From a virus: a stretch of DNA of 14,435 nt. Position numbers and translations under genes: made by a program. The notes beneath the pieces are model-generated. The model was not told the DNA's origin. It was given only the letters and a program-made list of their open reading frames with translations, and ran no database searches. The stretch lies in the UHGV virus genome UHGV-0124609; one strand, 5' to 3'. Positions within the stretch are counted from its first letter, which is position 1, and every line of letters starts with the position of its first letter. Positions 1 to 4,197 of the stretch are shown here, piece by piece.

Positions 1-119
1 GGTACTTTGCCTAAGTACGCCATCTCTTCCATCAGGTGCGCACCGGACGGCGCACGTAACAGCCATAGCGCCTCCGTGTTATCCCGCCTGTCAACGGCGC
101 GGTAGAGTTGGTAAATCAT
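1..119 (-). CDS. possible N-terminal part of a leftward gene running off the left window edge (hypothetical protein); strand assignment uncertain
   Basis: ATG is the reverse complement of 117-119, preceded by a GAGGG SD-like (revcomp of 128-132, 8-nt spacer). The minus frame is open for 39 codons to the window edge (MIYQLYRAVDRRDNTEALWLL...). Plus-strand frames are also open here, so this could instead be the 3' end of a rightward gene. Confidence 0.25.
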   Translation of the reverse strand, partial: MIYQLYRAVDRRDNTEALWLLRAPSGAHLMEEMAYLGKV

Positions 120-137
120 ATTTCCGACCCTCAGTTA

Positions 138-157
138 AAGCGGCCCGAAGGCCGCCT
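138..157. terminator. GC-rich stem-loop (GCGGCC-CGAA-GGCCGC) between the stop of the 160-aa gene and the left-edge ORF; possible intrinsic terminator
   Basis: 6-bp perfect GC stem at 140-145/150-155 with a tetraloop; on the minus-strand RNA the loop reads UUCG and is followed by UUUAA. The U-tract is short, so efficiency is uncertain. Confidence 0.4.
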
Positions 158-161
158 ATAG

Positions 162-644
162 TTATTCTTCTTCGAAATACTTGTTCTTGATTGCCGTCAG
201 GCGTTCCAGGTACTCGGCCAGGTCTTCGTCTTTAATCGCGGTAATCTTCATCTTCTTACCGGTGAACTCTTCCAGCAGTTCGTCGGAATCATCACACGCG
301 GCATCGCTAGGACCTTCGTTAATCGCATCGTCGATAGCCTGAATCTGGCCACGAAGAGACTTGTAATCGACTTCTTCTTTCTCTTCTTCCGGCTCTGGCG
401 TCGGTTCCTCTACTTTAGCTTTACGCGGCTTGCGTTTTGGCTTCTCTTCTTCCGCCGGTTTGGTGTCAACGATGTCTTCACCTTCGACCGGGATTTCTTT
501 TGTTGTCTCGATTGTTGCGGTTTGTTCAACGACCCCGGCGACTAATGCAGTTTTTGCAACATTAACTTGTTTTGCACTGTTCGCAGCAATCAGTTCATGT
601 GCAACTACGAAACGTTCCAGTAATTTTAAAAATTGTTCTAACAT
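162..644 (-). CDS. hypothetical acidic protein (160 aa) with a Lys/Pro/Glu-rich low-complexity linker and acidic C-terminus (…KYFEEE)
   Basis: Complete ORF in the six-frame track; ATG (revcomp of 642-644) preceded by a strong SD GAGAGGAGAG (revcomp of 649-658); near-consensus sigma70-like promoter upstream. Translation has a structured N-terminal ~45 aa, then KPAEEEKPKRKPRKAKVEEPTPEPEEEKEE, then an acidic C-terminal domain. Confidence 0.8.
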   Translation of the reverse strand: MLEQFLKLLERFVVAHELIAANSAKQVNVAKTALVAGVVEQTATIETTKEIPVEGEDIVDTKPAEEEKPKRKPRKAKVEEPTPEPEEEKEEVDYKSLRGQIQAIDDAINEGPSDAACDDSDELLEEFTGKKMKITAIKDEDLAEYLERLTAIKNKYFEEE

Positions 645-675
645 TTGTTTCTCTCCTCTCGTTTGGTATGGGCTA

Positions 676-705
676 ACTATAATAGCTAACTATTCAGGTT
701 GTCAA
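676..705 (-). promoter_or_regulatory. sigma70-like promoter for the leftward 160-aa gene (TTGACA-N18-TATAGT)
   Basis: On the minus strand, -35 TTGACA is the revcomp of 700-705 and -10 TATAGT the revcomp of 676-681, with an 18-bp spacer; predicted start lies about 25 nt upstream of the ATG at 644. Confidence 0.55.
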
Positions 706-720
706 TGGGCTTTCCTAAAA

Positions 721-745
721 TAATTAATATGGTACTATTCACATA
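721..745 (+). promoter_or_regulatory. candidate promoter -10 region (TACTATTCAC) for the rightward HTH gene
   Basis: TACTAT at 733-738 followed by TCAC is the same -10/discriminator sequence found in two other rightward promoters (4158-4167, 5424-5433). No good -35 at 17-bp spacing here, so this may be activator-dependent or weak. Confidence 0.3.
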
Positions 746-769: not shown

Positions 770-985
770 ATGCAACCATCTGAACTAGGCATCCGTGTAG
801 AGCAACGCCGCAAAGAACTCGGCATCTCTCAACGCCGTCTGGCGGTCCTGGCTGGCGTTTCCCAGGGCGCGATTAATCAGCTGGCGCTCGGTGTAACTCA
901 GGACGTACGCCCGGCAACACTGTTCAAGCTGGCGGAAGTGCTGGAAGTAGACGCCAAGTGGCTGGCGTTCGGTGAAGGGGCTTAA
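770..985 (+). CDS. XRE-family (Cro/CI-type) helix-turn-helix transcriptional regulator, 71 aa
   Basis: ATG 770 with SD AAGGAG at 756-761 (8-nt spacer). Translation contains a classic HTH signature LGISQRRLAVLAGVSQGAINQLALG. It is the only rightward gene in a leftward block, diverging from the 160-aa gene. Confidence 0.85.
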   Translation: MQPSELGIRVEQRRKELGISQRRLAVLAGVSQGAINQLALGVTQDVRPATLFKLAEVLEVDAKWLAFGEGA

Positions 986-1000
986 GCCCCTTTCTTTTTA
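975..1000. terminator. intrinsic terminator: perfect 18-bp palindrome AAGGGGCTTAAGCCCCTT followed by a T-rich tract, between the convergent HTH and primase genes
   Basis: Palindrome at 975-992 (7-bp GC-rich stem, TTAA loop) followed by TCTTTTTA at 993-1000; overlaps the stop codon of the HTH gene. The T-tract is on the plus strand, so termination is mainly for the rightward transcript. Confidence 0.6.
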
Positions 1001-3700: not shown

Positions 3701-3732
3701 TCTCAAACCCTCATTATCAGTTAACAAAATCG

Positions 3733-3761
3733 AGTATACATTGCGAATAATGGGAAATCAA
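3733..3761 (-). promoter_or_regulatory. sigma70-like promoter for the leftward AlpA/primase operon (TTGATT-N17-TATACT)
   Basis: On the minus strand, -35 TTGATT is the revcomp of 3756-3761 and -10 TATACT the revcomp of 3733-3738, with a 17-bp spacer; about 30 nt upstream of the ATG at 3700. Confidence 0.5.
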
Positions 3762-4041
3762 ACATAATCGCACCTATTGACATTATGAAAATCTTCGTTT
3801 AAGGTGCTTCTATATCTTAGTTACTTTGATTCTTGTTCACCTTGTAAACCCCGCCGAAAACGAGCGCCCAACGCGAAGTGTTAGGCGGCAGTTTACTGAA
3901 CATAAGAATTATCGTAACTTTCCTTCCTTAATATCTCCGGTTGCCCTGGGCAAGCTCTATTCTCATCGGCAGCATATCTCTTAAGTAACTGATTTTCTTA
4001 ATGTACCGTAGATTCACAACCGTAAAAATGTAACCCTTACC

Positions 4042-4065
4042 GGGCAGGCTTAAGGCCTGCCCTTT
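4042..4065 (+). other. stable stem-loop (GGGCAGGC-TTAAG-GCCTGCCC) followed by TTT within the non-coding region; possible terminator of a small transcript or structural element
   Basis: 8-bp perfect GC-rich stem at 4042-4049/4055-4062, 5-nt loop, then TTT at 4063-4065. No plus-strand ORF lies upstream of it. Confidence 0.3.
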
Positions 4066-4134
4066 AGTTACCAAGTAATAAGAATAAAGGCACAACCCTA
4101 CCTGAAGAATCACAACGGCAATGTAACTATTCTC

Positions 4135-4163
4135 TTGCACACCCCAACATAATAGGATACTAT
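4135..4163 (+). promoter_or_regulatory. promoter TTGCAC-N17-TACTAT driving the rightward early small-gene block
   Basis: -35 TTGCAC at 4135-4140, 17-bp spacer, -10 TACTAT at 4158-4163; identical hexamers and spacing recur at 5401-5429. The ATG at 4198 lies about 30 nt downstream. Confidence 0.5.
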
Positions 4164-4197
4164 TCACTTATCGAAACGAGACATAAGGAATTTAGAA

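What the first reader, a model, noticed from the sequence alone, without database searches (positions are those of the whole stretch)
162..644. Highly expressed acidic, partly disordered 160-aa protein: candidate DNA mimic or host-takeover factor
The gene has a near-consensus promoter (TTGACA-N18-TATAGT) and a very strong SD (GAGAGGAGAG), so it is probably abundantly expressed early. The protein pairs a short structured N-terminus with a K/P/E-rich linker (KPAEEEKPKRKPRKAKVEEPTPEPEEEKEE) and an acidic C-terminal domain (DDAINEGPSDAACDDSDELLEEF…YFEEE). Strongly acidic small early proteins in phages are often DNA mimics that inhibit restriction or other DNA-binding host proteins; the basic KRKPRK patch could instead indicate nucleic-acid binding. 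Function is unknown.
Basis: inference. Interest (0 to 1): 0.5.

Follow-up and report, generated by a model that had tools for sequence, protein, structure and literature searches.

The report
Abundant acidic early phage adaptor protein

Summary
The 160-aa ORF (162-644, minus strand) sits behind an 11/12 sigma-70 promoter and an AGGAG ribosome site. Its product has net charge -17. It is a helix (residues 2-23), a disordered K/P/E tether (24-93) and a confident three-helix bundle (94-158).

The window is a Kagunavirus (Guernseyvirinae) phage, and the protein is PHROG 3127, function unknown. It has no Pfam, NCBIfam, PDB-sequence or specific fold match.

In Guernseyvirinae, Dhillonvirus and a Serratia phage it occupies one position. 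It is the first protein-coding gene, or in two lineages the second, after the early promoter. A GC hairpin usually follows, then exonuclease, gp2.5-like SSB and DNA polymerase; the helicase-primase lies on the other side.

The N-terminal helix stays 22/23 identical where neighbouring enzymes are only 27-57% identical. A Dhillonvirus homolog was one of four phage proteins detected in infected cells, alongside the SSB.

The anti-restriction reading fails: Kagunavirus Bas70 carries an 83%-identical copy yet plates at about 1e-5 on EcoKI and is also restricted by type II and III systems.

My best reading is a stoichiometric, flexible adaptor working at the replication/recombination machinery (confidence 0.38). 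The main rival is an inhibitor of a conserved host DNA-metabolism protein such as RecBCD. Partners are untested.

The parts
162..644 (-). CDS of the 160-aa protein ('X'; PHROG 3127 family). ATG at 644-642, TAA at 164-162.
   Evidence: PHROG 3127 matches at E=8e-66 over the full length. 2467 homologs.
576..644 (-). Codons 1-23: N-terminal amphipathic helix MLEQFLKLLERFVVAHELIAANS, the most conserved element of the family.
   Evidence: AF2 helix 2-23. Mean pairwise identity is 73%, against 39% for the C-terminal domain and 27% for the linker. It is 22/23 identical in phages whose helicase-primase is 27% identical. Many synonymous differences show protein-level selection.
366..575 (-). Codons 24-93: intrinsically disordered polyampholyte linker. 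It includes the PVEGEDIVDTKP motif (residues 52-63).
   Evidence: pLDDT below 50. Length varies from 34 to 96 aa among relatives while composition is retained: K+R 12-30%, D+E 15-30%, P about 10%.
414..443 (-). Codons 68-77: basic patch KPKRKPRKAK flanked by acidic runs. It recurs as EEKPKRKPR-like motifs across the family.
   Evidence: The gp2.5-like SSB tails of the same phages carry similar acidic-run plus PRKRRR patches.
165..365 (-). Codons 94-160: acidic three-helix-bundle C-terminal domain. Conserved positions are L97, R98, D114, D118, D121, L123 and D139; the C-terminal tip is KYFEEE.
   Evidence: AF2 helices 94-110, 114-128 and 139-158 with pLDDT above 90. Conserved columns. The domain is duplicated in tandem in some relatives (P0132, P0144). 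It matches only generic three-helix bundles.
651..660 (-). Shine-Dalgarno GAGAGGAGAG.
   Evidence: Read directly from the sequence. Conserved in close relatives.
676..705 (-). Sigma-70 promoter: TTGACA (705-700), 18-nt spacer, TATAGT (681-676).
   Evidence: 11/12 matches. Positionally conserved in AH01, Shemara and 37P2.
672..694 (.). Operator-like repeats inside the promoter: GCTAACTAT at 672-680 and 685-693, and the palindrome-like AATAGCTAACTATT at 681-694. A related copy lies at 725-741 beside the divergent HTH gene.
   Evidence: The divergent 71-aa gene (770-985, plus strand) is an XRE/HTH_3 regulator. Binding is inferred, not tested.
138..157 (-). GC-rich hairpin with a UUCG loop (core stem GCGGCC/GGCCGC; RNAfold draws 8 pairs, the two outer ones weak), followed by TTTAA, starting 4 nt after the stop codon. 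It is a leaky terminator or an mRNA-stabilising element ahead of the replication genes.
   Evidence: RNAfold. An equivalent hairpin plus short T run, with a different sequence, follows the homolog in 8 of 9 lineages examined. The strict terminator scan did not call it because the T run is short.
1..119 (-). Start (ATG 119-117) of the next gene of the operon, which runs off the window. It is the homolog of a 90-aa ORF that overlaps the start of the DUF2800/PD-(D/E)XK exonuclease gene in relatives.

Best explanation
X is an abundant, non-virion early protein that belongs to the replication/recombination gene module shared by Guernseyvirinae, Dhillonvirus and related small siphoviruses. I propose it acts stoichiometrically as a flexible adaptor, not as an enzyme.

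Proposed mechanism, all inferred:
- The near-invariant N-terminal amphipathic helix docks into a hydrophobic groove of a slowly evolving partner, or oligomerises.
- The 35-95-residue polyampholyte tether carries a KPKRKPR-type basic patch.
- The acidic three-helix-bundle head binds a basic surface. A candidate is the Arg-rich end of the phage's own gp2.5-like SSB tail.
- In this way X would link or regulate components of the phage replisome/recombination machinery, possibly together with a host DNA-metabolism protein.

What is shown: the gene, its expression signals, its three-part predicted structure, its strict linkage to the module, the extreme conservation of the helix, abundance of a homolog during infection, and full restriction sensitivity of phages that carry it.

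What is inferred: that it binds proteins at all, which partners it binds, and that it acts at the replisome.
For: 1. Synteny is invariant in every lineage examined: AAA_25 helicase-primase | regulator | X | small ORF(s) | DUF2800 PD-(D/E)XK exonuclease | Enc34-type (gp2.5-like) SSB | DNA polymerase A. This holds in Kagunavirus, Cornellvirus, Pantoea AH01, Klebsiella 37P2, Dhillonvirus HK578 and EE09, Serratia Smarc3 and two metagenomic contigs.
2. Counts of phage records with X track those with the helicase-primase. Examples are Salmonella 355 vs 359, Kagunavirus 11 vs 11, Serratia 5 vs 5 and Edwardsiella 4 vs 4. X therefore behaves as a core gene, not an accessory one.
3. In the EE09 proteome at 25 min, only four phage proteins were detected. 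Two of them were CDS56, which is the X homolog, and CDS61, the gp2.5-like SSB. CDS56 was not among the proteins the authors list from cell-free lysates (PMC10673088).
4. The strong promoter and SD, plus a positionally conserved hairpin that sets X apart from downstream enzyme genes, fit a protein needed in higher copy number than the enzymes.
5. The architecture is one helix, a disordered tether and a small helical bundle, with no catalytic fold. The bundle is duplicated in tandem in some members, as binding modules often are.
6. Both folded ends are under purifying selection while the linker drifts. That is the opposite of an arms-race interface.
7. The SSB tails of all nine X-bearing lineages alternate acidic runs with PRKRRR-type patches, and the X linker has a similar acidic-run plus KPKRKPR patch. 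This suggests a shared docking logic.
Against: No interaction has been tested or modelled, because the tools here cannot predict complexes.

The N-terminal helix is 22/23 identical where the helicase-primase is about 27%, the exonuclease about 56% and the SSB about 46% identical. This argues that its partner is not one of those proteins as a whole. It fits a host protein, or the best-conserved phage enzyme (DNA polymerase, 60-68% identical), at least as well.

Being at the head of the operon behind the early promoter and set apart by a hairpin is also typical of host-takeover genes.

The similarity between the X linker and the SSB tails is low-complexity and could be coincidental.

Synteny shows association, not function.
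Confidence: 0.38

Rival explanations
1. X is a host-directed inhibitor or hijacker. Its invariant N-terminal helix and acidic head would bind a conserved host DNA-metabolism or transcription protein. The most plausible target is RecBCD, making X a functional analogue of lambda Gam or T7 gp5.9, which are also encoded beside the exonuclease/annealase genes. Other candidates are H-NS/HU, SSB, the beta-clamp, Rho and RNA polymerase. X would protect or favour phage DNA replication.
For: It is the first gene (second in AH01 and Shemara) behind the strongest early promoter, abundant, acidic and non-enzymatic. The N-helix is far more conserved than the helicase-primase, exonuclease and SSB next to it in Guernseyvirinae infecting Escherichia, Salmonella, Klebsiella and Pantoea, as expected for a target conserved across Enterobacterales. 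X sits upstream of an exonuclease plus annealase-type SSB pair, like gam next to bet/exo. Both folded ends are under purifying selection, which fits a housekeeping target. BASEL reports variable sensitivity of Kagunavirus to the Old system; from my own background knowledge, Old responds to RecBCD inhibition.
Against: There is no similarity to Gam, gp5.9, Abc2 or any other solved inhibitor. The helix differs substantially in Dhillonvirus (10/23 identical), which infects the same host species as Kagunavirus. Chi sites are over-represented in the window, 4 against 0.42 expected, and the Bas73 genome has 10. That would be odd if RecBCD were fully inhibited, although oligonucleotide composition explains most of the genome-wide excess. 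Old sensitivity is variable among Kagunavirus phages; I confirmed X directly only in Bas70 and Bas73, with partial matches in Bas71, Bas72 and Bas76. The small ORF overlapping the exonuclease start is an equally good Gam-analogue candidate.
Confidence: 0.3
2. X is a transcription-level regulator of the early-left operon, in a lambda N-like position. As the first product of the early promoter it would modify host RNA polymerase or Rho, so that transcription reads through the hairpin that follows its gene into the replication genes. Alternatively it would shut off host transcription.
For: The layout parallels lambda PL-N-tL1. There are divergent promoters with a Cro-like XRE regulator and operator-like repeats, X comes first, and a positionally conserved terminator-like hairpin precedes the exonuclease, SSB and polymerase genes. 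X is largely disordered with short conserved motifs, as N is.
Against: X is acidic (pI 4.55) and has no arginine-rich RNA-binding motif. Its basic patch is Lys/Pro-rich and predicted to be non-helical. The hairpins have only 3-5 T residues and may simply be leaky or stabilising elements. In Shemara the next gene follows with no hairpin. Abundance comparable to the SSB late in the eclipse period is more than a regulator needs.
Confidence: 0.1
3. X is an Ocr/ArdA-type DNA mimic that blocks type I (or other) restriction enzymes.
For: It is acidic, early and abundant, with an acidic stripe (D114, D118, D121) on helix 2 of the bundle and an acidic C-terminus reminiscent of Ocr's.
Against: Bas70 carries an 83%-identical X. 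In the rows retrieved it is restricted about 1e-5 by EcoKI, 1e-3 by EcoCFT_I, and 1e-5 to 1e-6 by type II and III systems. Bas73 also carries X and plated about 1e-3 on EcoKI in the one row retrieved. BASEL describes Kagunavirus as highly sensitive to RM systems. There is no Pfam hit, including Ocr and ArdA models, and no PDB sequence or fold match. The charge density of -0.13 per residue is about half of what I recall for Ocr. X is a core gene linked to a replication module, not a variable counter-defence gene.
Confidence: 0.03

Closest known systems
PHROG 3127 / UniProt Q9T1Z8 '13.88 kDa late protein' of Salmonella phage MB78 (uncharacterised family)
   Same: Full-length HMM match at E=8e-66. 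The MB78 entry shares the linker motifs and the whole C-terminal domain. This is the family the gene belongs to.
   Different: The family has no assigned function. The name is only a label from an old database entry that annotation pipelines have propagated. The protein here is 18.0 kDa, and the MB78 entry lacks the conserved N-terminal helix. I found no evidence for 'late' expression.
T7 Ocr (gp0.3) and ArdA anti-restriction DNA mimics
   Same: Small, acidic and abundantly made from a strong early promoter.
   Different: No sequence or fold similarity. Half of X is disordered with a basic patch. Phages carrying X are fully restricted by type I, II and III systems.
Lambda Gam / T7 gp5.9 RecBCD inhibitors
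   Same: Small helical acidic proteins encoded next to the phage exonuclease and annealing-protein genes.
   Different: No detectable similarity. X is separated from the exonuclease by a hairpin and a further small ORF. The activity is untested. Chi sites are over-represented in the window.
Interaction logic of SSB tails (T7 gp2.5 and E. coli SSB: a disordered linker plus an acidic tip that recruits replisome partners)
   Same: A disordered charged tether ending in an acidic interaction element. X is co-abundant with the phage SSB, and its charged motifs resemble those in the SSB tail of the same phages.
   Different: X has no OB fold and no evidence of ssDNA binding. Its acidic element is a folded three-helix bundle rather than a short peptide. 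This is an analogy of mechanism, not membership.
Lambda N antiterminator
   Same: First gene after the early-left promoter, largely disordered with short functional motifs, followed by a terminator-like hairpin ahead of the recombination genes.
   Different: N is basic and binds RNA through an arginine-rich motif. X is acidic and has none.

Membership tests
PHROG 3127 (unknown function) | Significant full-length match to the family HMM | tested here: met
   E=8.2e-66; residues 1-160 align to profile positions 1-177 of 178.
Ocr / ArdA anti-restriction DNA mimics | Sequence or fold homology to Ocr or ArdA | tested here: not met
Ocr / ArdA anti-restriction DNA mimics | Protects the phage from type I restriction | tested here: not met
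   Published EOP data: Bas70, whose X is 83% identical, gives EOP about 1e-5 on EcoKI and about 1e-3 on EcoCFT_I. Bas73 gave about 1e-3 on EcoKI in the one row retrieved (PMC11990801 S1 data). This is phage-level evidence, not a test of the isolated protein.
Ocr / ArdA anti-restriction DNA mimics | Rigid, elongated, highly charged surface that imitates the phosphate spacing of B-DNA | tested here: inconclusive
   Net charge is -17 over 160 aa, and -9 over the 67-aa folded domain. The conserved D114, D118 and D121 lie on one helix face. Model coordinates could not be inspected, and the oligomeric state is unknown.
RecBCD inhibitors (Gam, gp5.9, Abc2) | Homology to a known inhibitor | tested here: not met
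   No Pfam, PDB-sequence or fold match.
RecBCD inhibitors (Gam, gp5.9, Abc2) | Encoded in the same operon as the phage exonuclease and annealing protein | tested here: met
   X precedes the DUF2800 PD-(D/E)XK exonuclease and the gp2.5-like SSB in all lineages examined.
RecBCD inhibitors (Gam, gp5.9, Abc2) | Binds and inhibits RecBCD | not testable with these tools
   This needs biochemical or genetic assays, such as plating of T4 gene 2 mutants or pull-down of RecBCD.
Lambda N-type antiterminators | Arginine-rich RNA-binding motif in a basic protein | tested here: not met
   pI 4.55. The only basic patch, KPKRKPRKAK, is Lys/Pro-rich and lies in the disordered segment.
Single-stranded DNA-binding proteins (gp2.5 / Enc34 type) | OB-fold core (Pfam Enc34_ssDNA-bd / DUF2815) | tested here: not met
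   No Pfam hit and an all-helical prediction. The module's true SSB is a separate gene.

The most novel reading that the evidence does not exclude
X could define a new class of phage 'hub' proteins. An invariant N-terminal helix would capture a conserved host DNA-metabolism protein, such as RecBCD or another nuclease or helicase. The acidic three-helix head and charged tether would hold it at the phage's own SSB-coated replication intermediates. X would then both neutralise a host threat and organise the replisome. That combination has not been described for Gam, gp5.9 or Ocr.
Probability: 0.15. Interest if true: 0.7.

Novelty: new member of a known kind. Interest (0 to 1): 0.33.

Why it matters
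The family is present in essentially all of the roughly 600 sequenced Guernseyvirinae, Dhillonvirus and related phages, always at the head of the replication operon. These include therapy candidates and BASEL model phages that grow on E. coli K-12. It appears to be one of the most abundant non-structural proteins of infection, yet nothing is known about it. Identifying its partners would fill a gap in how this widespread T7-like-SSB / PolA / primase-helicase module works, or reveal a new host-neutralising strategy. The negative result is also useful: this acidic early protein should not be annotated as an anti-restriction DNA mimic, and the inherited label '13.88 kDa late protein' is uninformative.

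Tried and rejected
- Pfam, NCBIfam and PDB sequence searches, with the single sequence and with a profile of the C-terminal domain, found nothing meaningful. The best PDB hit was a de novo designed helical protein at E=0.0013.
- Foldseek against BFVD returned only family members: MB78 Q9T1Z8, eiAU Gp46 and St162.
- A profile search with the C-terminal domain alone, looking for other domain contexts, returned only 15 truncated family members.
- P0142, an apparent fusion of the N-helix to a different C-terminus, sits on a 515-bp metagenome scaffold. I dismissed it as unreliable.
- The anti-Tmn protein of Dhillonvirus (PMC11846954) is a different, accessory protein with a beta-sheet.
- The Kagunavirus transcriptome paper (PMC12645636) does not state the temporal class of the homolog, gene 003, in the text or the tables held.
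- The literature search pairing Guernseyvirinae with RecBCD found nothing, and the Jerseyvirus/early-genes search returned only unrelated papers.
- Chi-site enrichment as a test of RecBCD inhibition was suggestive in the window. Genome-wide it is largely explained by oligonucleotide composition: 10 observed against 7.5 expected under an order-6 Markov model.
- Predicting complexes was not possible with the tools available.

Full report
**What is there.** The window is about 90% identical over its first 3.3 kb to Escherichia phages of the genus Kagunavirus, subfamily Guernseyvirinae.

Its promoter is TTGACA-N18-TATAGT at 705-676, an 11/12 consensus match. The promoter keeps its position in distant relatives. 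The ribosome-binding site GAGAGGAGAG lies at 660-651. The protein is 18.0 kDa, pI 4.55, net charge -17. It has a +4 Lys/Pro-rich patch at residues 63-78 flanked by acidic runs.

AlphaFold2, run with a 23-sequence alignment of diverse relatives, predicts three parts:
- a helix at residues 2-23, pLDDT about 76;
- disorder at residues 24-93, pLDDT below 50;
- a three-helix bundle at residues 94-158, pLDDT above 90.

One qualification: the protein is clearly acidic but not extreme. In a complete relative genome it ranks about 9th of 81 proteins by pI, although it has the highest negative charge per residue of any protein over 100 aa.

**Family and distribution.** The protein is a full-length member of PHROG 3127, function unknown. 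It has no Pfam or NCBIfam match and no PDB sequence match.

There are 2467 close homologs in the 5.8-billion-protein collection. They collapse to only about 32 clusters at 50% identity, so this is a narrow, phage-specific family.

Many phage records call it '13.88 kDa late protein'. That label traces to UniProt Q9T1Z8 of Salmonella phage MB78, a 123-aa entry that lacks the conserved N-terminus. It carries no functional information.

**Genomic context.** X sits in the same place in every lineage examined. These are Kagunavirus, Cornellvirus (Shemara), Pantoea phage AH01, Klebsiella phage 37P2, Dhillonvirus (HK578, EE09), Serratia phage Smarc3 and two metagenomic contigs.

On one side is an AAA_25 helicase-primase. 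A small regulator lies between it and X, transcribed divergently from X or convergently with the helicase-primase depending on the lineage. X is the first gene downstream of the early promoter, or the second where an extra small ORF intervenes. After X come one to four small ORFs, a DUF2800 PD-(D/E)XK exonuclease, an Enc34/gp2.5-type SSB and a family-A DNA polymerase.

Record counts by host genus for X match those for the helicase-primase. X is therefore a core gene of this replication/recombination module, not a variable accessory gene.

A GC-rich hairpin follows the stop codon directly (138-157; UUCG loop, core stem GCGGCC/GGCCGC, then TTTAA). Eight of nine lineages have a hairpin plus a short T run at the same place with unrelated sequence. 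This looks like a conserved leaky terminator or RNA-stabilising element. It would let X be made in excess over the downstream enzymes.

**Conservation pattern.** Among representatives that share 30-50% identity overall, mean pairwise identity differs sharply by region:
- N-terminal helix, 73%;
- bundle, 39%;
- linker, 27%. The linker varies from 34 to 96 residues but keeps its polyampholyte composition.

The helix is 22/23 identical between Kagunavirus and AH01 or Shemara. In the same comparisons the helicase-primase is about 27%, the exonuclease about 56% and the SSB about 46% identical. Synonymous differences are abundant in this stretch, so the constraint is on the peptide.

The helix is more diverged outside Guernseyvirinae: 15/23 in the Serratia phage and 10/23 in Dhillonvirus. 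R11, A15, E17 and A20 stay invariant.

Within Kagunavirus both folded ends are nearly invariant, and variation concentrates in the linker. Some relatives carry two bundles in tandem.

This is the signature of a binding protein with conserved partners. It is not the signature of an enzyme or of an arms-race interface.

**Expression evidence from the literature.** A proteomic study of E. coli infected with Dhillonvirus EE09 detected only four phage proteins at 25 min: CDS29, CDS40, CDS56 and CDS61 (PMC10673088). I translated the two replication-module genes. CDS56 is the X homolog, annotated with a spurious 60-residue N-terminal extension. CDS56 was not among the proteins the authors list from cell-free lysates. 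CDS61 is the gp2.5-like SSB.

A Kagunavirus transcriptome paper did not report the class of the homolog.

**Test of the anti-restriction / DNA-mimic reading.** The BASEL collection paper describes Kagunavirus isolates as highly sensitive to RM systems (PMC11990801). Its raw data for Bas70, in the rows retrieved, give these EOP values:

| System | Type | EOP |
|---|---|---|
| EcoKI (5 sites in the genome) | I | about 1e-5 |
| EcoCFT_I | I | about 1e-3 |
| EcoRI | II | about 1e-5 |
| EcoRV | II | about 1e-5 |
| EcoCFT_II | III | about 1e-6 |
| EcoPI | III | 5e-5 |

Bas70 encodes X at 83% identity, with an almost identical C-terminal domain. Bas73 also carries it and plated about 1e-3 on EcoKI in the one row retrieved.

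A phage making an effective Ocr-like mimic would not be restricted 100,000-fold by EcoKI. A mimic aimed at some other DNA-binding protein is not excluded.

**Most likely mechanism.** I favour a stoichiometric, flexible adaptor acting at the replication/recombination machinery (confidence 0.38). The N-helix would dock onto a conserved partner or oligomerise, and the acidic bundle would bind a basic surface.

One concrete candidate for that basic surface emerged. In all nine X-bearing lineages the gp2.5-like SSB ends in an unusual tail, not the purely acidic tail of T7 gp2.5. It alternates acidic runs with PRKRRR-type patches, for example DDLEDDEEDEAPRRERRRR. The X linker carries a similar acidic-run plus KPKRKPR patch. 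This is low-complexity similarity and only suggestive.

The main rival (0.30) is a host-directed inhibitor. The extreme conservation of the helix relative to neighbouring phage proteins favours a host target or the DNA polymerase. The position beside exonuclease and annealase recalls lambda Gam and T7 gp5.9.

Several points count against strong RecBCD inhibition:
- the helix differs between Kagunavirus and Dhillonvirus, which share a host species;
- Chi sites are over-represented in the window, 4 observed against 0.42 expected with 0 of 200 shuffles reaching 4;
- the Bas73 genome has 10, although an order-6 Markov model already expects 7.5.

A lambda N-like transcriptional role (0.10) fits the promoter-gene-hairpin layout but not the protein's chemistry.

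**Verdict.** The gene and its features are real and the description is accurate. The specific functional guess is wrong. The gene is a member of a catalogued but uncharacterised family, a conserved and abundant component of a widespread phage replication module. It is a worthwhile experimental target of moderate interest, not an anomaly.

Noticed in passing
window 672-741: Operator-like repeats lie in the divergent promoter region. GCTAACTAT occurs twice (672-680, 685-693) inside the spacer and -10 of the X promoter. A 17-nt repeat, TAATAGCTAACTATTCA (680-696), recurs as TAATATGGTACTATTCA (725-741) next to the divergent 71-aa XRE/HTH_3 gene (770-985). This looks like a Cro-type switch in a virulent phage.
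   Followed up: partly
window 1025, 6167, 12640, 14312; L010 (Bas73 whole genome): Chi (GCTGGTGG) occurs 4 times in 14.4 kb (0.42 expected; 0 of 200 shuffles reach 4). The Bas73 genome has 10 copies. In Bas73, Chi strand largely follows the coding strand: all four minus-strand copies lie in minus-strand replication-region genes. An order-6 Markov model already expects about 7.5, so composition or codon usage explains much of it.
   Followed up: partly
L001 878-1507, L004 6830-7537, L005-L008, L010-L012 (SSB genes of relatives; outside the window): The gp2.5/Enc34-type SSBs of all nine X-bearing lineages end in tails that alternate acidic runs with Arg/Lys-rich patches (e.g. ...DDEEDEAPRRERRRR; repeated DDDDEDDKPRKSKKSKRR in EE09). 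From what I recall, T7 gp2.5's tail is purely acidic, like the acidic Enc34 ORF6 C-terminus described in PMC5686142.
   Followed up: partly
L009 34845-35543 (Escherichia phage EE09 CDS56): The deposited CDS56 starts about 60 codons upstream of the conserved MFEQIVNLITRG start of the family, so it is probably mis-annotated. The authors used its proximity to a 'transposase' to argue that the phage is temperate, but the gene is the replication-module protein described here.
   Followed up: yes
window 974-994: A strong hairpin with a T run (GAAGGGGCTTAAGCCCCTTT + CTTTTT) lies between the convergent HTH regulator gene (ends 985) and the helicase-primase gene (ends 1002). It is a likely terminator, possibly bidirectional.
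   Followed up: no
window 3728-4197: A 470-bp region with no plausible gene (only short, likely spurious ORFs) lies between the leftward replication genes and the rightward block of small genes. It has weak direct repeats (AGATTCACAACCGTAA at 4010 and 4106) and two long-range inverted repeats. It may hold promoters or an origin.
   Followed up: no
annotation of homologs in public records: Annotation pipelines have propagated spurious names in this module. X is labelled '13.88 kDa late protein', the 90-aa downstream ORF 'phosphoheptose isomerase', and a 77-aa ORF 'putative uvsX-like' or 'replication protein'. For the two proteins I scanned (X and the 90-aa ORF), no domain search supports the name.
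   Followed up: partly
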